A stretch of 64,000 bases of DNA from TPA_inf: Saccharomyces (taxonomy: Eukaryota): positions 352,001 to 416,000 of the forward strand of contig BK006939.2 of assembly GCA_000146045.2 (NCBI GenBank). The letters run 5' to 3'. The translations under genes were made by a program, and so were the position numbers. Of this stretch, positions 2,934 through 29,700 are shown one piece after another. Each line of letters starts with the position of its first letter. Position 1 is the first letter of the stretch. The notes below the pieces were generated by a model. The model was not told the origin of the DNA. It worked only from the letters and a program-made list of their open reading frames with translations, and searched no databases.

Positions 2934-3005
2934 TCCGATATAGTGTAACGGCTATCACATCACGCTTTCACCGTGGAGACCGGGGTTCGACTCCCCGTAT
3001 CGGAG
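2934..3005 (+). tRNA. tE(UUC): tRNA-Glu (anticodon UUC), intronless, 72 nt
   Basis: TCCGATATAGTGTAACGGCTATCACATCACGCTTTCACCGTGGAGACCGGGGTTCGACTCCCCGTATCGGAG. It has an A-box, a B-box GGTTCGACTCC and a CTTTCAC anticodon loop. A T6 Pol III terminator follows immediately. Confidence 0.93.
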
Positions 3006-3008
3006 TAC

Positions 3009-3014
3009 TTTTTT
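3009..3014 (+). terminator. RNA polymerase III terminator (T6 run) for tRNA-Glu
   Basis: TTTTTT lies 4 nt after the tRNA 3' end. Confidence 0.8.
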
Positions 3015-3465
3015 GACATCATACAGTGTATGTATGGGGTTAGGAGCCACCTTCCAACAAAGCATCACGCTGTCGTATCTCAATTGTCCTTCAGCAAAAG
3101 AAAAAGCAGTTGGGCTCCTGTACGCCATATATACTTTATATGCGGTTTTTACCCCGGAAATCGCGTTTATTAATGTCAATGCGCGATTTCTATTATGGGT
3201 TGAAAAAGTTGCACTTCTGTTCCTTTCCAAACGATATACGCCCCCCCCACAAGAAAACGTTTCTCTTGCATTCAATAAGGTCCATCGAAGCTGTATTTGG
3301 AACTTCCGATTTTATTAAACTTCTAGGGGCGAACTCAACCTTTCGCTTGAACAAGCTTGAATGTGTCGAAAACCTTAGCTCGATCCTTAAAAAAGTATTT
3401 GCATTATCAGTAATAAACAGAAAATTAAAACATTTACCAAAGGCAACGAGTCTTCCATATGAAAA

Positions 3466-5730
3466 ATGATAAAAAGATGGTTATCTGTGAATAGGAAAAA
3501 GTCACACCCGGAGAAGAACACTCAAGGTAATGACGAAATTAATCGGAAAGCAACTAGCCTGAAGAAAACGAAAGGTTCTGGAGATCCCTCCATAGCGAAA
3601 TCACCAAGTGCTAAGAGTAGTACATCAAGCATACCTTCTAATCTTGCGAGCCATGAAAGAAGAAGCAAGTTTAGTAGTCAAACGGATAACCTTGCAGGAA
3701 ATAAACATTACCATGAGCATTACCATAATATGGCAAGTACTTCAGATGAAAGAGAGTACGATTCCTCGACTACATATGAAGATCGTGCGTTCGATACAGA
3801 GTCCTCCATACTATTTACTACTATTACAGATTTAATGCCATATGGGGATGGTTCCAATAAAGTGTTTGGTTATGAAAATTTTGGGAATACTTGCTACTGC
3901 AACTCCGTTCTACAATGCCTTTATAATATCCCCGAATTTAGGTGTAATGTGCTGCGATATCCTGAAAGAGTAGCCGCAGTAAACAGAATACGCAAAAGTG
4001 ATTTGAAGGGTTCAAAAATAAGGGTATTCACTAATGAAAGTTTTGAAACATCTACTAATAGCGGAAATTCTAATACGGGGTACCAAAGCAATGATAATGA
4101 AGATGCACATAACCACCACCACCTTCAGCAGAGTGATCAAGATAACTCCTCTTCTTCTACTCAAGAAAAACAGAATAATTTTGAAAGAAAAAGGAACTCG
4201 TTTATGGGTTTTGGAAAAGATAAATCGAACTATAAAGATTCTGCAAAGAAAGATGATAACAATGAGATGGAACGGCCTCAGCCTGTTCACACAGTTGTAA
4301 TGGCCTCTGATACATTAACAGAGAAGCTTCACGAAGGCTGTAAAAAAATTATTGTGGGAAGACCGCTTTTAAAGCAAAGCGATTCCTTATCAAAAGCTTC
4401 AACTACAGATTGTCAAGCAAATTCGCATTGCCAGTGTGATTCACAAGGCAGTAGGATTACATCAGTGGATGATGATGTCCTTGTTAACCCTGAGAGCTGT
4501 AACGATGCTGTCAACAATTCTAATAATAATAAAGAGAATACGTTTCCAACAAGTGAACAAAGAAAAAAAGCCGCTTTAATTAGAGGCCCCGTTCTTAACG
4601 TAGATCATTTACTTTATCCAACCGAGGAAGCTACACTTTACAATGGACTAAAAGATATATTTGAGTCTATTACTGAAAACTTGTCGCTAACCGGTATCGT
4701 TTCACCTACAGAGTTTGTCAAAATTTTAAAAAAAGAAAACGTCTTGTTCAACACTATGATGCAACAAGATGCCCATGAATTTTTAAACTTTTTATTAAAT
4801 GATTTCAGTGAATATATTCAACGCAATAATCCCAGAATGAGATTCGGACCACAAAAGACAGACAACAGCAACGACAACTTTATAACGGATTTATTCAAAG
4901 GTACACTGACGAATAGGATCAAATGTTTAACTTGTGACAATATCACCTCAAGGGACGAACCATTTTTAGACTTTCCAATAGAAGTACAGGGTGATGAAGA
5001 GACTGATATCCAGAAGATGTTAAAAAGCTATCATCAGCGTGAGATGTTGAACGGGGTTAACAAATTTTATTGTAACAAATGTTATGGTTTACAAGAAGCA
5101 GAACGTATGGTCGGACTGAAGCAACTGCCCCATATTCTGTCATTGCACCTAAAAAGATTCAAGTATTCAGAGGAGCAAAAGTCAAACATCAAACTTTTTA
5201 ACAAAATACTCTATCCACTAACTTTGGATGTTTCTTCCACTTTTAATACATCAGTATATAAAAAATATGAACTAAGCGGCGTCGTCATCCATATGGGGAG
5301 CGGTCCACAGCATGGTCATTACGTATGCATTTGCAGGAACGAAAAGTTTGGGTGGCTTTTGTATGATGACGAAACGGTGGAATCCATAAAAGAAGAAACT
5401 GTGTTACAATTCACAGGTCATCCAGGTGATCAAACTACAGCCTACGTTTTATTCTATAAAGAAACACAGGCTGATAAGACCGAAAATCAAAATGAAAATA
5501 TAGACACTTCTAGTCAAGATCAAATGCAGACTGACAATAACATTGAACAGTTAATAAAATGCGATGATTGGTTAAGGGATCGTAAATTGAGGGCAGCTGC
5601 AAATATTGAACGCAAAAAGACCTTGGGGAATATACCTGAAGTTAAGACTGCAGAAACCAAGACGCCATTAAATGATAAAAAACGCAATAAGCAAAAAAGA
5701 AAATCGAGAATATTGAGCTTCATCAAATAA
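3466..5730 (+). CDS. UBP9: Ubiquitin C-terminal hydrolase (USP family), 754 aa
   Basis: ATG at 3466. Cys-box [13 protein letters not shown] and His-box [24 protein letters not shown] are present. The length matches YER098W. Confidence 0.9.
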
Positions 5731-20013: not shown

Positions 20014-20325
20014 CACAATTGAAATCCGAGCTGTAGTTTTTGTGAAATGTTTCTCCTACAAACAGATTTTATTCTTAATTTCTTCTATTGATTTATAAAG
20101 CCATTCAAAATTCAGATGGAAATTATTCATTAGAAATCTTTCCTCTCCAAAGTCGGGTAATACTTTCTATTTTGTGTCACTAATTTTATAATACTTTAAT
20201 CAGCAAATACTATAATAATAGAATAATCTCCAGACGTTCATGGAAAGTTCAACAATGGAAACATAGCCATATTTATTTACTAGCAAAAGCATTTTCAGAG
20301 AATTTTTTTGTTTCCTGAAAAAAAA

Positions 20326-21234
20326 ATGAGGGAAAAAAGAACAATTTCAAATAAAGACACAAACTATCTCAAATTCCCAAATAAACTCCAAAGATATTCC
20401 CGATTCTTGAGCAGGAAGATATCCAATACCAGCCCAGAAAAGCAACCGAAGAAGAACATAAAAGAACACTGTTTATCGAGTTATCATAAAGAACACTCGG
20501 TAAAACCAAAGCAAAACTCCGGTAATGTTGCAGCAAAAGAAGACAAAGATACGCAGCATTTACAAAATAATGTCGCTAATGAAGAAGCAACGGAATGTCT
20601 AACAAGAAGTAATTTGAAAAAGTTACAAGAGAAAATTTTCGATAGAGAACTTAATGATATTGCCTGTGATCATTGTCTTTGTAGCACAGAAAATAGAAGA
20701 GATATCAAGTATTCACGACTTTGGTTCCTTTTTGAGTTGGAAATGAGTGAAAACTGGAATGAAAATCTCCGCCTTAGTTGCTATAATAAATATGTGTATT
20801 CCGCAATTGATGAGTCGTGGAAAATGGAGAATATTCTACTTAAAGAACAAGAGAAGCATTATGAATATTTTCCAATAGGACAATTACTGATACCCAATAA
20901 TATTGACTACACTAATAAACAGAAAAGGAAGGAAAACATTGAAGACTTAACAATTGAAATTGATAGTATTATAGAGACAAACCATCAAAAGAAAAGATTT
21001 TTGCCGCAAAGTGTCCTGATAAAAAGGGAGGATGAAATTGCATTTGACGACTTTCATTTGGATGCACGAAAGGTTCTAAACGATTTGAGCGCCACTTCTG
21101 AAAATCCATTCAGCTCTTCACCAAATACAAAAAAAATTAAATCAAAGGGAAAAACCTTGGAAGTGGTTCCCAAAAAGAAAAACAAAAAGATCATAGGTGC
21201 TTTGGAAAGAAAGCTACATATAGATGAAAATTAA
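20326..21234 (+). CDS. MAM1: Meiosis I monopolin subunit, 302 aa
   Basis: The track ORF starts at TTG 20308; the first ATG at 20326 gives 302 aa (MREKRTISNKDTNYL…), matching YER106W. Confidence 0.8.
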   Translation: MREKRTISNKDTNYLKFPNKLQRYSRFLSRKISNTSPEKQPKKNIKEHCLSSYHKEHSVKPKQNSGNVAAKEDKDTQHLQNNVANEEATECLTRSNLKKLQEKIFDRELNDIACDHCLCSTENRRDIKYSRLWFLFELEMSENWNENLRLSCYNKYVYSAIDESWKMENILLKEQEKHYEYFPIGQLLIPNNIDYTNKQKRKENIEDLTIEIDSIIETNHQKKRFLPQSVLIKREDEIAFDDFHLDARKVLNDLSATSENPFSSSPNTKKIKSKGKTLEVVPKKKNKKIIGALERKLHIDEN

Positions 21235-21447
21235 TGAAAGTATTGTCTGCACATTACCACCGGTTAAAACGGCGACTCAGTGTAACCTGTAAAACTTTTT
21301 ATCAATTTTGAATAGGTATAGAGAGATTTTCCTATTCTCTCCAAAAGAACCTGTATCATTAAAAAATATATATCTTTTACATATTGCAAATATAAAAAAT
21401 TACAAAAGTAATGTGGTTGCGCACGGAAGCTATCCGAAGAACGAATT

Positions 21448-22545
21448 TCACCTTTTCTTTTTCTCTTTAACCTCTTCATCAGTTGTGGCATGTAGCCTAA
21501 TGACGTTTGGATAGTCGGGTCTGTTGCCCATATGGCCTTGATGCCAATCATAACTTAGAGCGTACGCAAATACGCTACCATTCCTATTGAAGCTGCATAC
21601 AGGAATAGATGCTTGCAAAGTAGGATAGCCTTTCAATCTATGCCTTTGATTCTTATCCCAAAAATTGAAGGTACCATCACCACCAGCCGTAACAAAAGTA
21701 CCATATAATGGATGAAATGCAATGCTATTTACAGGATACACTAGAGATTGACCATTGGAGCCAGGTGCCCTATTAGGATTGGTTTGACGATGGCATTTAA
21801 ATGAAAAGCCTGATTTTTTCTGCATACCATCATCGATATACCTTATGGAGCATCTACCTTCCACTGAACCAATCGCATATCCATCGGCTTCATTATAACA
21901 TGCCACGCATCGAGTTTGCCATTTTAAAGGTGACGTGGTTGCCTTAAAAATCGTTGTTGGGTTTGCTAGATTGATAATAGCGATATGTCTTTCGGCAGTA
22001 GCCACTACTAACAGAGACTGTTTATTATCCATCGAATATACTCTTTCAGGCATCATTACGGTGGATACGGGCTGGGGTTGTCTCATATCCCAATATTTTA
22101 TGGTTTTATCCCAGGATCCGGTTACTATACACTCTGTGTTCGATGGTCCACATTGTACAAAACGTAATACTTTTATTGGCGCAGAATGCATTCCAATTTG
22201 CTGTGTTTGACCACTGGCAATATCGTACAATTTCAGGGCATTATCACACCCGCCTGAGGCTACTTTTGTACCATCATTCGACCATCTGGTACATAATACA
22301 GGGCTGGAGCTTTCATGCTGCGCTCTACCTTGAGGTACACCATTTTGGACATCCCAAATACGTACCTTACCGTCCCAGGAACTGGCACTAAACATGAAAT
22401 CTTGTTGCGGTGAAAACGCAATATCCGATATTGAGTCCTCTGCTGGGCTATTAATGACAATATCATTGGCCAAATCCTTTTCATTCGCCATTGCAGTACT
22501 CGTTCCCAAAGCTGAGGTTGTATTTGATCGATTAAAAAAAGACAT
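21448..22545 (-). CDS. GLE2: WD40-repeat nuclear pore-associated mRNA export factor (Rae1 ortholog), 365 aa
   Basis: WD repeats (…[10 protein letters not shown]…, …[12 protein letters not shown]…); 365 aa matches YER107C. Confidence 0.9.
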
Positions 22546-23214
22546 AGTTCCCCACTTTTCCTCTTCTTACGTATTTCTTTATTTTATTGTAATATGCAGA
22601 TTAAGGTTTATGATATTTGATCAAGGTGGATGTGCCGGAATGATTGGTATGGTAAGCTTGCCCAATTCTTATAAGTCAGTCTCTGTTCAAGTAAAATGGT
22701 TATATAGTGCTTAACCGGAACAAACCTTTAGCAATTGCGATCAACTAAGATATCTTATTGTAAACCCTACCGTCATCATATGAAATATCAATCTTAGAAA
22801 TCTTAGAGAGCAATGCAAAAAAAAAAAAGAGACGAGACGGTCATCGTAAATCATGATCATAGTAATGTCAAAAGTTAATTTACCATTATGCCAAGCTACT
22901 TCAATGAGTGTACATCAACCAGAAAAGTGCCTGTATTTAATGGTTCAAATGTTCTTTTTATAAGTACAATATCTTATCTAAAAATTAAACACTTCTATCT
23001 TATCATGGAAGAAAAACAAAGCTATCACAAAACAAATATCCTAAAAAACCGTTTATAAAAAGTCGTTGCTGTGAAAATGGTTCAGTTCACAGGGCTTAAA
23101 CCCATCCCCAAATTTAGCGAAATGTCAGATACGTAACTCCATTCTCCTAGCTTTTTATTATGTTTCCTGTCATTAAGAGTTTTTATTTTTTATTATAATA
23201 CTCAACACGTGACT

Positions 23215-25614
23215 TCAGCCTTCCCAATTAATAAAATTGAAATCATTTTCATTTGTATCCAGTAAATTGAGATCGTAATCCGGTCCTTGGTCTTCAACCA
23301 TACCAATATTCCCAAACTTCAAGTTCTGAGAGTGTACATTCTGATTTTCATTAGTACTGGTTTGCTGAGGACCCAAAGTTGTACCCACATTGGATGAGGG
23401 CTGAATTAATGTGTTATCATTATCGCCACTATTTGTAGATGCAGAGGTTTCATCAGCAACATTTGAATTCTCGTTTGGTGTTCTATTGTTAGAAGCATAA
23501 GCTTGATTAGGAAACAACAAAGAACTTGAATTTTTGAGGGCGTCAAAATCATATCCTTGATTATTACTACTCGGCTTTTTTTCCTCTGGAGTAGATAATG
23601 TGTTACGATTGCCTTTACTACTTCTTGAATCATTGCCTACTTGCGCCTCCAGTATGTTTCCCCCATTCGGCAATTCTTGGGATACTGTATTATTCTGTGA
23701 AGTGATTATTTTAGAGTTCTTTAAAGTAATATTCAAATTGGTGGTTGAAAACCCATGTGGCGGCTTTATAACCACGTTTCCTGGTACCTTAGAACTTCTT
23801 TGCTTCTGAGCGTCACCAGACCGAGGTGTTGCTATGCTTAATGGGGATGATGCCGAAACTTTTGAGTTTACTGCTCGCTTGGGTCCATTCTTTCCGGCAA
23901 TCTTGCCACTTTCTGGATCGAAGCAACTCTCTGTCACTGAAGATAATGGACTGGATACAGCCGGCTTGTTGAAACTTCCCAAATTTATACCTGGAAAAGG
24001 GAGAGAATTCGCAGTTTTAGTGGGCGGAGCGGAATGAATATTCGGAGCAATAGTATTCGAGAATGTTCTTAACATATTATTCTCATCCTTAGTGGCATCA
24101 GCATTCAGAATAACAGAAGGAGTGGATTTCCTCCTCGACACTCTAGTGTTAGGGGGACTGCGCTTTTTACCTGTCACCACGCTGTTGCCACCGAGTTTAT
24201 TCGTAGACTCTACTGGAAAAGCTGAGGTGGATGCCTTTTTTGTATTTTTCCTTACCTTTGTGGGCTGTTTAGAAGCTAAAGCGGAAGGTGATGCTCCATC
24301 CAACGATGGGCTAGATTTGGAATTAGAATAAATATCTTCCTCGCCAAATATTATTGCTTGATTGCGGAAGTTAGTAGCAATATCTGATCTTGGAGTCTTA
24401 TTTACTCTTGAACCTACCATAGCGGGTTCACTTGTTGTTGAGCCTGGTGTGGTAATATTTGGCGAACAAGCGTTCGTCGATCCCGCGGAAACTGTAGCGG
24501 TATTATTTTTTCTTCGTCTCTTAGCCACTAGACCGGCTTTAACTTTACCCTTCGCTTTTGAGGTTGCAGATCTACTTCTTGTAGATTTTGACGTCGGGAC
24601 ATTATTTGGTTTATCTGTTGAATGCATAGTTTTTAAACTTTTAGGTTGGTTCACTGGAGATTTGTTATTAGTTGTATTATTTGTGGTATTATTGTTACAC
24701 GGGTTTCCCACTGGATTTTCCGTAGTGGGTTGCATTGGATAATTATAGACTGGCCAGCCAGTAACGTTTTGACTCCGATTCTGGGTTGGCCCTACATTTG
24801 TAAAATCGCCGGAAGGCGGCGCTGTGGGAGCAACAGCAGTTGCACCAGTCGTGGGGTTTGCATTATTGTATGGTGGAATGGAAAAATTATTAACGATAGG
24901 GTTACCAACCATAGGAATTGGTATAGGGTTCATATTAACATTGCGCATTTGAACCGCAGGTGCCATAGGATTTCCTAGCATCATAGCAGCCAAGTGCATG
25001 GGGTCTATGTCCTCGTTACTATATTCCCCTCTTCGTTCTGCATCGTGTTGTAGCCTTGCCGCATGAACAGCCAAGCTTCTATATATTTGTTCCTGCCTTT
25101 GTTCTTGAAGAACTAGTTGATAATATTGCTGAGCGAACTCTGAGCCACCTCTGGAAGAACTGGTATTAAAGATGTCCCAGAATATTTGCTACCATTCATA
25201 CAAAAAGCCTTGAGGTGTATCTACTACCTTCGAGAACGTATTCTGGTTACCATTGTTTTCTTTAGATTTGGGTCCGTCGACTGGGTTTTGGCCTTTGTCT
25301 CTATCTAGGTGCGCATCTTGAGCAAAGGCTGCTGCAGTGTTTTTCAAAGACGACTTCGTAAGAAAGTCAAATATGTACTCATTGAGCGTATTCTTGCAGT
25401 TCATTTTTTCCTTCAAATCCGAATTTTCCGCCGTAGGTTGATTTATCCACTGCTGTTGCTGCTGTTGCTGCTGCTGCTGTTGTTGTCGCTGCTGTTCACT
25501 ATTCGTTGCCATTGCAATATTACTCTGCAAATCTTGTTTATACTGGCTTGCCATGTACGGTTGTTCCGTGGGAGGAATTGAATCTGGATACGAACTATTC
25601 ACTTTATAACTCAT
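23215..25614 (-). pseudogene. FLO8: FLO8 (LisH-domain transcription factor for flocculation and filamentous growth) interrupted by an in-frame amber codon at 25189-25191 (the flo8-1 allele). The intact frame would encode 799 aa.
   Basis: The 141-aa ORF (25192-25614, ending …GFLYEW) and the 619-aa ORF (23215-25074) are in the same frame and separated only by TAG at 25189-25191. Together they give 800 codons = 799 aa + stop. An N-terminal LisH-like region and poly-Q tract are present. Confidence 0.88.
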
Positions 25615-26761
25615 TCTACCACGGAATGCGTTTCCTCTTTATTTATGTCTATAAACGTCTTCGTGTTTATTTTTTATAGCCTCAGTGACTTACTAACGTC
25701 AACTCACCGTGTCTTCGGCAAACAAAATGGTATCAAAGCAAATGCGCTTGAACAGGAGTAAAAAATGGTCACTTTTTCAATCTGTATTCTATGAATTTTA
25801 TCAGTACCGGTCTCAAACCAACCCTCTACAACTTCATCGTGATCCCATTCTTTCTTCGTTGTCTTCCCACGCTCTTCCGGACCCTCGTAAAAGAGTCCGA
25901 AGCCGAGAAGGCGCGATTTCATGCACTATACACTCGTTGGCAAACACAACAATGGACCCTGGCCAGTTGAACTGTGGTCCCTGTTGCGTCCACTATTGAT
26001 ATGCATGCATGTGGACGCAAGCACACGCCTGCATAAACGTTTAATTCCTCAGTATCCCACTCCCAGGGCTACTTATTCGAGGCATTTTCTATTTTTGTTA
26101 CTACTAGAGCCAGCATTAGAACTGGAAATACAGCAAAAAATTTTTCACATTCTTATCACAAGAATGTGCAGGAGAAGGTAAAACCTGCAGGTAACTTGCA
26201 TATATTTCAGTAAATTACATGTACTATACATCGTCAAATAATTTACATTTGTACAAGACCAATATCCGGGGCCCGCTAATTAGTAACGTGCCGTGATTCT
26301 TTCATTAGAACAAGTACAAGATGACCTGAACTTGCGCGTATTCATATGGAAAATACGCAAGGCCCGGTTATTTCCGTTCTGGGATATTCGCCGAAAGCTG
26401 CCTTCTGTTCGAATTGCGTCGTCAACATCCTTTTGAGCTTTCTTTAAGTTCTTTCCTTCGAGATGGACGATGCCAAGAGAATCATCGCTGAGTTGATCGG
26501 CGGCGTGTAGATGCGCCGATCAACTTTACAGGACGAAACTCACATAACCTTAATACAATAAAAAAGTATTGCATACAATAGGTCCCTCAGGACACATACA
26601 TACAAGATTGGCAAAAGTGAAGGCAGGTGCCTAAGATTGGGTGGGAAAGTAAATTTACATATAGTTTTTTCTAGGAAAAAAATAAAAATAATGAAGGAAG
26701 GTATACTTATATAAGCGCTGTTTATCGAAACAGACGAGAATAAAAAATGGTTTTAAAAAAA

Positions 26762-29700
26762 TCAAGCAATGACGGCAGCTAAAACCGGATTTTGAGCAAC
26801 AATTCCGTTGTAAGTAGTGTTTAGATACTTCAATAATTCAATAACCTTATGCTTCATCTCTTCGGTTTGGAATTGCTTTAATCTTTCCATATTCTCTTCC
26901 CTACCTAGAGTAGACTCCTTTTCTAACTTAATTCTATCATTTTCTTTGGTAAACACAGCACTGAAAATCTCGATGATCCTTGGGGTTTCGTTTGTGATAA
27001 CGGGACTATTTTCCTGGTATAGTTTCATGATCAATTCGAAAATTGGATTGTATTCTTCAAAACCGGTGTTTAGTGGTAAATGTGCCAATAATGCTGGAAC
27101 AGTTTGTTCCAATGGAACTAGAGCACTGTTCTTCAAAGCCATTCTGGCCACACATCCACTAGCATTAGCGTATGCTCTATCAATAATCTCTCTGGTGGCT
27201 TCGTCATCTTCGGCTGCTAAGGCCTTTTGGTCAGCAGCACTTAGTAACTCATAAAGCGCCTTCAAAACAGGTTCATAAACGGCTGAGATGTCCATAGAAG
27301 CATATTCACACAACAAACCAACACCATAAGCCGCGTTACCTCTAACTTCTAAAGATTTATCGCTTGTTAATCTAATGACTAAGGCTTCTAGCATTTCATG
27401 AACGAAAGGATTTTGTTCTTTCATACCTAGAGCTAATTCAGAGGCGGCACCGACGGCGGATGATCTCTTATTCTTGGATTTAGATTGGAATAATCCGAAA
27501 ACAACCGGTCTGAAGTTGTCAAAGACTTTGGCAAAATCACCAGCTAAAGCTTGAGATAAACTGACAAGAACTTCCAATGCAACATCTTGTAAAGTTGCTT
27601 CGGTTTCAGAAGCGTCTAATTCTTCATCTCTTGGAACGTCCTCCTCGATATCAATGGTTTGACAAGTATGGGTACCCTTCAAGACACTAAGAACTTGCAT
27701 GCACAAAGCTTCTAGCATAGAAGAGTCGCCGTTGTCCATGATGATGATTGCGCCAAATTGCTTAATCATATTGGCAAAATCTTCCATAACGGTAATGACC
27801 ATTGAGGTTTCGAATTCATCGCTTAAGTTACCCATGGAAGTTTCCCTGGCAGCTTGAATAACCGCCAAAACATCAGCATTAACGTAGGAAGAGGCTGGGA
27901 TACCCTTAGGATAGCTTTCTGGTTCTACTTTGGAAGCCAACAGGACAGACTTAACAACATTCCAGATGGTGTTTAGAGCGGTTTCTCTTAAACCGTACGA
28001 CTCATCGACTTGTTCATTCAAAACCTTTAAGGATTGTTCGACGTATGGCAAGAAATGCTCCTTCGTACCCAATGCTAATTCGGATAGAGCTGCAGAAGCA
28101 ACTTCCTTTTCATAGGAAATACCAGTGTTAACGGTGAATTTGTTCTGTAGTTCTTCTTCATTGGCAGAATCAGCAAATGCGGCTAAATCCTCTGCATCAC
28201 CATCGAAGTTGAATTGGTATTCATCTAATTCTAGTGTCTTGAAGATTTCTGGTAGGATAGTTTTCAAGAAAGGAGCAAAATTTTCGCCGTAAACTTTAGC
28301 CAAGTTTGCAATGAATGCATAACCAGATTCTCTTAATCTAGCAGAATCAGTTTTGATGGCCTCATAGGCGGAGTTAACCAAAGGTTCGGCAAATTCGGCA
28401 AATGCGTCTGATCTGACGGCTCTGGCCATAGTAGAAATATTTTCAAAAGTGTTGGCCCTTAGTTCTATATCATCTTCGCTCATACCTTCAATTTGAGAAC
28501 AGTTTTGGATGAATTTTTCCAAATAGTGAACACTAGTCTTGAAATATGGAATGAACGCGGAACCTGCTGCAAAAGCAGCGGAACCAATTGCAGAAACAAC
28601 AGCACATCTCAACTTGGATGATTCATTACTTTCCAACATATAGAATAGTTTGTTCATTAATGGATCCAAGTACTTAGCGATAGCATCATAAGCAATGAAC
28701 TCAAGCAGACCATCTAAAGCAACAGTTGCATAGTTGTAAATGACAATGTTTTTCGCAGAATCAATGATATCGATGATCAATGGCAAGTATTCTTCATGAA
28801 ATTTGGCAACTTCGTCTTGTAAGTCAGTGGTTAATTGGTGAATACACTTCAGAGCAGCTAATTTAACAATCGGTTCAGTATCCTTCAAACCGTTTATGGT
28901 GGCAGGGATAATTTTGTCGAATTGAGACAAAATGTAGTCTGGAGAACCAGTAACAGCAACGGAAATAGCTAAAAGAATAGCTCTTCTCTCAAAAACGTTT
29001 GCGGATTGCAACATAGCTGGAATGTGTTCAACAATAACGGAAGCAACCTGGGATGGTGGCAGTTCAGAGGAAGCGAAAGCTAACAGTCTAATAGCAGAAG
29101 AAGAGGGTGTATTTTCCTCATTTTCGCCTGTTTCGTCTTCGTTGTTTAATTCATCGTCAACATCGATCTCTTCACAAGCCACCTTCAAAGCTGCAACAGT
29201 AATTTCTGGGCCCAATTTGCTTTGAGAAACCTTCGATTTTCTGTAGGACAATGAAGATATGATGAATTGAAGAGCAAAAACTCGAACATCTTCGTCAATC
29301 TCACTGTTAACAGCAATTTGTAAAGACAGCTTAATCAAATCCACAATAAAGTTTCCTGTTAATTGGGAGTCCAATAGCAGGAAATCGTTTAAACAGTTAA
29401 AGATTAATTTAGCGTTCATGGTGTCGTCGGCCTTGATAACTGCGTCTAAAACGTTAACCACAGATGGAATTGAGGCGGCGAATTTTTGAGCTTGAACAGG
29501 GTTGATGGTTTCTTGTTCTTCAATCAAAGCAGAAACGTGGTTCAAAGCCTGGGCAGATAATGATCTGATCTCCAAAGAAGATGGATCATTAATTGTCTGA
29601 GAGAACAAAGCCAAAAAGTCATCGATGTGGCCAGATAGAGAAGAGGTGAAATCTTCCAACAGAGAAAACAAAATAAAAATGGCAGTTTGTCTTGTTTGAA

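What the first reader, a model, noticed from the sequence alone, without database searches (positions are those of the whole stretch)
25189..25191. In-frame amber codon (flo8-1) splits FLO8 into 141-aa and 619-aa ORFs
The two minus-strand ORFs at 25192-25614 and 23215-25074 share one frame and are separated only by TAG at 25189-25191, where intact strains carry TGG (Trp; protein context …GFLYEW*). The restored frame would encode the 799-aa Flo8 transcription factor. This is the classic laboratory-strain lesion that abolishes flocculation, invasive and pseudohyphal growth. It marks the source as S288C-like and means the locus is non-functional.
Basis: partly seen in the sequence, partly recalled or inferred. 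Interest (0 to 1): 0.5.

Follow-up and report, generated by a model that had tools for sequence, protein, structure and literature searches.

The report
Known flo8-1 amber mutation in FLO8
This is the textbook single-base nonsense mutation (Trp142 to amber stop) that inactivates the yeast adhesion and filamentation regulator FLO8 in S288C-type laboratory strains, so the finding is real but already well known.

Summary
On the minus strand, an 800-codon frame (ATG at 25614, TGA at 23217-23215) has exactly one internal stop: TAG at 25191-25189, codon 142, in the context GFLYEW*QIFWD. All 19 Flo8 relatives that cover this column have Trp there: 7 Saccharomyces cluster representatives, 6 more S. 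cerevisiae strain proteins and 6 distant yeast LisH proteins. Human and fly SSBP/SSDP also have Trp at the aligned position. Seven other S. cerevisiae loci carry TGG. One of them, L009 ('CBK' gene models), is identical to the window over 7,785 bp except for this single base (window 25190). The lesion is therefore one recent G-to-A change on an otherwise intact gene, with no secondary decay. Four independent read-set assemblies carry the same TAG, so it is not a sequencing error. The stop falls inside the conserved LisH/LUFS domain and removes 82% of the protein. The literature describes exactly this allele (Flo8 142Stop in S288C, 142Trp elsewhere) and its non-adherent phenotype, which FLO8 restores. 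The one point worth a further look is that the TAG is followed by CAAATA. This matches the yeast read-through consensus and is the same hexamer as a high-read-through reporter, so the stop could be somewhat leaky. Published phenotypes argue against any functional rescue.

The parts
25189..25191 (-). Amber codon TAG at FLO8 codon 142 (flo8-1). The derived base is window 25190: A on the coding strand, G in intact alleles.
25192..25614 (-). FLO8 codons 1-141, the only part translated up to the stop. It contains the polyQ tract and the LisH motif.
   Evidence: The identical 141-aa ORF is called on two Logan contigs.
23215..25188 (-). FLO8 codons 143-799 plus the terminal TGA (23217-23215). This is 657 stop-free codons left untranslated by the amber codon.
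   Evidence: It is identical to the intact L009 allele.
25312..25386 (-). LisH motif, residues 77-101.
   Evidence: Pfam PF08513 scores 23.5 bits against a cutoff of 21.6 on the domain fragment, and all 10 of 10 aligned relatives match. On the whole protein it scores 19.9 bits.
25159..25206 (-). Predicted third helix of the LUFS domain (residues ~137-152, GFLYEWWQIFWDIF). The stop cuts through it.
   Evidence: A profile search against solved structures hits SSBP2/SSDP LUFS domains at E=1.1e-7, spanning LisH plus this helix. The columns G-F-L-E-W-W-F-W-D-F are invariant. A low-confidence AlphaFold model places a helix at residues 68-83 of the fragment.
25183..25188 (-). CAAATA immediately 3' of the stop. 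It matches the yeast read-through consensus CA(A/G)N(U/C/G)A.
   Evidence: The consensus and the identical IXR1-TAG hexamer are in PMC4150775.
24997..24999 (-). First in-frame ATG after the stop (Met206). It is the start of the 594-aa model that is on record as 'Flo8p: transcriptional activator of FLO1'.
25450..25496 (-). CAG/CAA polyglutamine tract, which varies in length between strains.
   Evidence: Eight codons are missing in L001-L003.
24466..24468 (-). Codon 383 TGT (Cys). It is Gly in every other Flo8 that covers the position (Ala in S. eubayanus), but the intact L009 allele also has Cys.
23984..23989 (-). TATAAA inside the FLO8 coding region. This is the published cryptic-promoter TATA at +1626..+1631. 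The cryptic start sites at +1679..+1685 correspond to window 23936..23930.
   Evidence: Sequence. Coordinates from PMC2581627.

Best explanation
The window carries the flo8-1 allele of the yeast transcription-factor gene FLO8. A single G-to-A transition (coding-strand nucleotide 425, window 25190) changed the invariant Trp142 codon TGG to the amber codon TAG. Translation from the normal ATG stops after 141 residues. That fragment keeps the polyQ tract and the LisH helices. It loses the second half of the LisH/LUFS domain and the 657 C-terminal residues. No functional activator of FLO1 and FLO11 is made, which removes flocculation, invasive growth and pseudohyphal growth. The mutation is very recent: the rest of the gene and its flanks match an intact allele exactly. 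Shown here: the sequence change, its uniqueness, the conservation of the residue, its position in the domain, and its presence in independent assemblies. Taken from the literature: the loss of function and the phenotype. Inferred and untested here: lower mRNA levels through nonsense-mediated decay.
For: There is one internal stop in an 800-codon frame. Chance is excluded at P of about 1e-18. Trp is present at the aligned column in all 19 relatives that cover it and at the aligned position of SSBP2/SSDP. The block GFLxEWWxxFWDxF is invariant. TGG is found in seven other S. cerevisiae loci. L009 is identical to window 20215..27999 except at base 25190. The TAG allele occurs in four independent Logan assemblies, L007, L008, L010 and L011. 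Gene order is conserved, with a WD40 gene and an importin-beta gene as neighbours. In the literature, S288C has Flo8 142Stop against 142Trp elsewhere (PMC4859572). FLO1 and FLO11 are expressed, and adhesion and filamentation regained, only when FLO8 is restored (PMC2780560). The name 'flo8-1' is used for the S288C background (PMC3664417). The internal TATA sits at exactly the published +1626.
Against: Nothing contradicts the identification. Three caveats apply. The stop is followed by CAAATA, a match to the read-through consensus, so 'no full-length protein at all' is not proven by sequence. The original description of the allele (Liu, Styles & Fink 1996) could not be read in the held library, so the allele description comes from papers that cite it. 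No phenotype can be tested here.
Confidence: 0.97

Rival explanations
1. The stop is leaky and the locus is not truly null. The amber codon sits in a read-through-promoting 3' context, so near-cognate tRNAs would insert mainly Tyr, with some Gln and Lys. This would give low levels of full-length Flo8-W142Y/Q/K that retain some activity under some conditions.
For: TAG-CAAATA matches CA(A/G)N(U/C/G)A and has the same 3' hexamer as the IXR1-TAG reporter, which is reported at 25% read-through. At UAG in that context, Tyr 92%, Gln 5% and Lys 3% were inserted (PMC4150775). The motif occurs at only 0.7-1.0% of positions in the window and after none of 27 natural stops of long ORFs. Trp to Tyr keeps an aromatic side chain.
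Against: S288C is phenotypically flo8-deficient and is rescued by FLO8. The [PSI+] prion and another termination modifier did not change clumping in strains with the flo8 stop, although that result is given as data not shown (PMC4859572). Trp142 is invariant from Saccharomyces to human SSBP2. The two bases before the stop are GG, whereas the reporter has AA. From my own knowledge of Tork et al. 2004, not checked here, adenines at these positions favour read-through. A stop at 18% of the ORF should also trigger mRNA decay (inference). All relatives have TGG, so the context is a by-product of the conserved Gln143-Ile144 codons and not a selected signal.
Confidence: 0.07
2. The TAG is a sequencing or assembly error in the window, and the real sequence is TGG.
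For: It is a single-base difference from otherwise identical DNA.
Against: The same TAG is found in four independently assembled read sets, with 99.9-100% identity to the window. The literature documents the stop in S288C.
Confidence: 0.01
3. One of the fragments has a function of its own. Candidates are the 141-aa LisH-containing N-terminal peptide, which might titrate Mss11, or a 594-aa product re-initiated at Met206.
For: The LisH motif is reported to mediate the Flo8-Mss11 interaction (PMC4453552), and it lies before the stop. The 594-aa frame is intact, and it exists in the protein collection as a named protein and in gene models.
Against: The allele behaves as a loss of function that a low-copy FLO8 plasmid complements, which argues against a strong dominant-negative fragment. 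The stop cuts the LUFS helix that packs after LisH. The 594-aa gene models also occur at loci with an intact TGG, so they are annotation under-calls and not evidence that such a protein is made. Re-initiation after a 141-codon ORF is inefficient in yeast (general knowledge).
Confidence: 0.02

Closest known systems
flo8-1 allele of S. cerevisiae S288C (FLO8/YER109C, W142amber; Liu, Styles & Fink 1996)
   Same: Same gene, same codon (142), same change (TGG to TAG) and same neighbours. The internal cryptic-promoter TATA lies at the published coordinate. The sequence is identical to other assemblies that carry the stop.
   Different: Nothing detectable. It is the same allele.
Intact FLO8 alleles (CEN.PK113-7D-type, ScRAP-type isolates, the 'CBK' assembly)
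   Same: 98.2-99.99% DNA identity and the same length class (791-802 aa, differing in polyQ length).
   Different: They have TGG at codon 142. The CBK allele differs from the window at that base alone over 7.8 kb.
LUFS-domain proteins (SSBP2/SSDP; solved structures 8hib, 6tyd, 6s9r, 6iwv)
   Same: A LisH motif followed by the FLxxWWxxFWDxY/F helix. The profile match is E=1.1e-7, and the Trp that aligns with W142 is conserved.
   Different: Only the roughly 80-residue N-terminal domain is related. The rest of Flo8 is low-complexity sequence specific to yeasts.
Yeast read-through contexts (IXR1, SFB2, TIP41; consensus CA(A/G)N(U/C/G)A)
   Same: The six bases after the flo8-1 stop, CAAATA, are the same as in the IXR1-TAG reporter.
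   Different: This stop is a recent mutation, not a conserved natural terminator. The two upstream bases are GG and not AA. No read-through has been measured for it, and the published suppressor test was negative.

Membership tests
FLO8 orthologue (LisH/LUFS transcription activator) | N-terminal LisH motif | tested here: met
   PF08513 matches residues 77-101. It scores 19.9 bits on the whole protein, below the 21.6 cutoff, and 23.5 bits on the domain fragment. All 10 aligned relatives match, with a best E-value of 4.3e-10.
FLO8 orthologue (LisH/LUFS transcription activator) | LUFS extension: a conserved FLxEWWxxFWDxF helix after LisH | tested here: met
   The columns are invariant in 10 sequences. 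The profile hits SSBP2/SSDP LUFS structures at E=1.1e-7 across both elements.
FLO8 orthologue (LisH/LUFS transcription activator) | Full-length similarity and conserved gene order with named Flo8 proteins | tested here: met
   The restored protein is 99% identical to S. cerevisiae proteins and 73% identical to S. arboricola 'flo8p' at 100% coverage. The WD40 gene and importin-beta gene flank it in every locus fetched that extends into the flanks.
FLO8 orthologue (LisH/LUFS transcription activator) | Activates FLO1, FLO11 and STA1 together with Mss11 | not testable with these tools
   Literature only (PMC2780560; PMC4453552).
flo8-1 allele (S288C lineage) | TGG to TAG at codon 142 | tested here: met
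   The literature gives 142Stop against 142Trp.
flo8-1 allele (S288C lineage) | No other disabling lesion in the gene | tested here: met
   There is a single internal stop. The sequence is otherwise identical to an intact allele over 7,785 bp.
flo8-1 allele (S288C lineage) | Source strain is S288C or a relative | tested here: inconclusive
   Logan contigs carrying TAG are 99.9-100% identical to the window, but their strain names are not given. The cryptic TATA sits at the published S288C-background coordinate. The window's 594-aa C-terminal protein matches a record named 'Flo8p: transcriptional activator of FLO1' exactly. No named S288C record was available for direct comparison.
flo8-1 allele (S288C lineage) | Recessive loss of flocculation and invasive or pseudohyphal growth, complemented by FLO8 | not testable with these tools
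   Literature only.
Programmed stop-codon read-through site | 3' hexamer matches CA(A/G)N(U/C/G)A | tested here: met
   CAAATA.
Programmed stop-codon read-through site | The stop codon is conserved in relatives, with a coding signature downstream | tested here: not met
   All relatives have a sense codon (TGG, Trp) here. The stop is a derived mutation.
Programmed stop-codon read-through site | Measured read-through above background | not testable with these tools
   The only related published test, [PSI+] and clumping, was negative and given as data not shown.

The most novel reading that the evidence does not exclude
By coincidence, the flo8-1 amber codon lies in one of the most read-through-prone 3' contexts known in yeast: TAG-CAAATA, the same hexamer as the IXR1-TAG reporter. 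S288C-background cells might therefore make a small amount of full-length Flo8, mostly W142Y. That amount could rise when termination or mRNA decay is impaired, for example with [PSI+], amber-suppressor tRNAs, upf mutants or aminoglycosides. This could be a hidden variable in adhesion and filamentation phenotypes reported for 'flo8' laboratory strains. I found no discussion of it in the papers I could search.
Probability: 0.1. Interest if true: 0.35.

Novelty: already known. Interest (0 to 1): 0.07.

Why it matters
It is a dependable marker that the sequence comes from an S288C-type laboratory background. It explains why such strains do not flocculate, invade agar or form pseudohyphae, and any work on adhesion or biofilms in this background must first repair FLO8. 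For annotation, it is a reminder that one gene is split here by one very recent base change. It also shows that truncated 594-aa 'FLO8' models get called even in assemblies where the gene is intact. Nothing here changes current understanding.

Tried and rejected
The original paper (Liu et al. 1996, PMC1207636) is not held in the library. Neither are the read-through screens (Namy 2001 PMC1084031, Namy 2003 PMC154216, Williams 2004 PMC545446). I therefore could not check whether FLO8 was ever listed as a read-through candidate. Searches for 'flo8-1 + readthrough', 'FLO8 + readthrough + premature', 'FLO8 + nonsense-mediated' and 'YER108C' found no study of read-through or mRNA decay at this stop.

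The exact restored 799-aa protein is not in the protein collection as such. The exact protein look-up did not find the 141-aa ORF either, although gene calls for it exist on two short Logan contigs. I could not establish which strain 'CBK' is; a search for CBK together with EM93 found nothing.

I first suspected that the 594-aa FLO8 models marked other strains carrying the stop. I rejected this because those loci have TGG. I also suspected that Cys383 was a second change private to the mutant allele. I rejected this because the intact L009 allele shares it.

The AlphaFold model of the LisH/LUFS fragment has low confidence (mean pLDDT 60.6). I used it only for helix boundaries and did not run a fold search with it. 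The Rfam and tRNA scans found nothing at the locus.

Full report
**Observation.** Read on the minus strand, the window contains ATG at 25614, followed by 141 sense codons. The sequence then reads TAT GAA TGG TAG CAA ATA, with TAG at 25191..25189. Translating 25614..23215 gives 800 codons with exactly one internal stop, at codon 142, and a terminal TGA. Reading codon 142 as a sense codon gives 799 residues. The 657 codons after the TAG contain no stop. From the base composition of the gene the chance of this is about 1e-18, and the other two frames of the same strand hold 39 and 78 stops. This is therefore one interrupted gene and not two neighbouring ORFs.

The frame is in fact open from the base after the TAG. 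The first in-frame ATG is Met206, which gives 594 aa. That exact 594-aa protein is on record under the name 'Flo8p: transcriptional activator of FLO1'.

**Identity of the gene.** The restored protein finds full-length relatives at E=0. These include S. cerevisiae proteins at 99% identity, one of them labelled Flo8p of strain CEN.PK113-7D. They also include S. arboricola 'flo8p' (73%) and proteins of S. uvarum and S. eubayanus (67-68%). The neighbours are a 365-aa WD40 protein downstream and a 1113-aa importin-beta-type protein upstream. The same order is seen in every S. cerevisiae locus fetched that extends into the flanks.

The protein has a LisH motif at residues 77-101. After a variable linker comes an invariant block, GFLYEWWQIFWDIF. 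A profile of this region matches the solved LUFS domains of human SSBP2 and fly SSDP at E=1.1e-7 across both elements. A low-confidence AlphaFold model (mean pLDDT 60.6) places a helix at residues ~137-152. The stop therefore falls inside the conserved N-terminal domain, at the second Trp of the WW pair.

**Is the stop derived?** The aligned column is Trp in all 19 relatives that cover it. These are 7 Saccharomyces cluster representatives, 6 further S. cerevisiae strain proteins and 6 distant yeast LisH proteins. SSBP2 also has Trp at the aligned position.

At the DNA level, seven other S. cerevisiae loci read GAATGGTGGCAA where the window reads GAATGGTAGCAA. The cleanest case is L009 (NCBI assembly GCA_947370305.1, gene models prefixed 'CBK'). 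Over 7,785 aligned bases (window 20215..27999) it differs from the window at one position only, 25190, where it has G and the window has A on the coding strand. The lesion is thus a single G-to-A transition (coding nucleotide 425) on an otherwise unchanged haplotype. Nothing in the gene has decayed since, so the event is recent.

**Is it an error?** Four independently assembled public read sets contain the TAG: Logan SRR35180664, DRR531728, SRR6228823 and SRR29838458. They are 99.9-100% identical to the window.

**Literature.** PMC4859572 states that S288C and close relatives have Flo8 142Stop while clumping strains have 142Trp. It lists FLO8 among genes whose S288C stop codon is absent in other strains, and gives S288C's genotype as 'gal2 flo8-1 hap1'. 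PMC2780560 attributes the non-adherent, non-filamentous behaviour of S288C to a nonsense mutation in FLO8. It shows that FLO1 and FLO11 are expressed, and adhesion and filamentation regained, only when FLO8 is restored from a plasmid. PMC3962479 mentions FLO8/YER109C as two neighbouring non-functional ORFs brought together into one annotated reading frame.

PMC2581627 places the internal FLO8 cryptic-promoter TATA at +1626..+1631. In the window, TATAAA sits at exactly that offset, 23989..23984. The original description of the allele (Liu, Styles and Fink 1996) is cited by all of these papers but could not be read here. From my own memory, not tested here, the reference coordinates of YER109C on chromosome V would put this window at about 352-416 kb of that chromosome.

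**Mechanism.** Shown here: translation from the normal start ends after residue 141. The product keeps the polyQ tract and the two LisH helices. It lacks the rest of the LUFS domain and the 657 C-terminal residues. Taken from the literature: Flo8 acts with Mss11 to activate FLO1, FLO11 and STA1, and the truncation abolishes this activity. Inferred: an early stop of this kind should also expose the mRNA to nonsense-mediated decay. I found no paper in the library that tests this for FLO8.

**A side observation.** The six bases after the TAG are CAAATA. This matches the yeast read-through consensus CA(A/G)N(U/C/G)A. It is also the same hexamer as in the 'IXR1-TAG' reporter of PMC4150775. That reporter was the most efficient context tested there, at 25% read-through; the figure covers both [psi-] and [PSI+] strains. 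Tyr (92%), Gln (5%) and Lys (3%) were inserted at UAG. The motif occurs at only 0.7-1.0% of positions in this window and after none of 27 natural stops of long ORFs. The stop may therefore be leakier than an average nonsense codon.

Several things argue against any biological importance:
- The motif is simply the conserved Gln143-Ile144 codons.
- The two bases before the stop are GG, where the reporter has AA.
- Trp142 is invariant.
- S288C behaves as a flo8 mutant.
- The [PSI+] prion and another termination modifier did not change clumping of strains with the flo8 stop, although this result is reported as data not shown.
- In a Sigma1278b-derived sup70-delta strain, UAG-suppressor tRNA alleles other than sup70-65 did not induce pseudohyphal growth.

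I rate a functionally relevant leak at roughly 7-10%.

**Verdict.** This is the well-known flo8-1 mutation of S288C-type laboratory yeast. It is already known and of low interest beyond marking the strain background.

Noticed in passing
window 25183-25188 (minus strand): The amber codon is followed by CAAATA. This matches the yeast read-through consensus CA(A/G)N(U/C/G)A and is identical to the 3' hexamer of the high-read-through IXR1-TAG reporter in PMC4150775. The motif is found at about 1% of positions in the window and after none of 27 natural stops of long ORFs.
   Followed up: partly
window 24466-24468 (minus strand, FLO8 codon 383): The codon is TGT (Cys). Every other Flo8 read that covers the position has Gly, except S. 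eubayanus with Ala. The intact 'CBK' allele (L009) shares the Cys, so this is an older change on the same haplotype and is not linked to the stop.
   Followed up: partly
window 25450-25496 (minus strand, FLO8 codons ~41-54): The CAG/CAA polyglutamine tract varies in length between strains. It is 8 codons shorter in the CEN.PK-type allele (L001-L003), and full-length proteins in the cluster range from 791 to 802 aa.
   Followed up: partly
L004, L005, L006, L009 (gene at 3001-4785 in each): FLO8 is annotated as a 594-aa protein starting at Met206 in several S. cerevisiae assemblies even though their codon 142 is an intact TGG. These gene models are under-called, not real truncations. Other models of 401, 710 and 742 aa exist in the same protein cluster and were not examined at the DNA level.
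   Followed up: partly
L004 6763-7671 and L006 6763-7671: The MAM1 homologue next to the WD40 gene is called as two pieces (163 + 132 aa) in these two assemblies. It is a single 302-303 aa gene in the other loci that reach it, and a single ORF in the window (20308-21234). This is either a real lesion or an assembly error.
   Followed up: no
window 23984-23989 and 23930-23936 (minus strand): TATAAA inside the FLO8 coding region lies at exactly +1626..+1631, the published cryptic intragenic promoter used in FLO8-HIS3 reporters. The published cryptic start sites map to 23936..23930.
   Followed up: yes
window 2934-3005 (+), and about 2136-2290 and 2735-2860: A tRNA-Glu (anticodon TTC) is the only RNA-family hit in the window. 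Upstream of it are stretches that look by eye like degenerate Ty1 delta LTR remnants. That is my recollection of the delta sequence and was not tested.
   Followed up: no
literature: PMC3664417: sup70-65, a single-copy UAG-suppressor tRNA-Gln, induces pseudohyphal-like chains in BY4743 'despite' homozygous flo8-1. The passages that mention flo8 do not consider suppression of the flo8-1 UAG itself. Other UAG-suppressor alleles did not induce the phenotype in a Sigma1278b-derived strain.
   Followed up: partly
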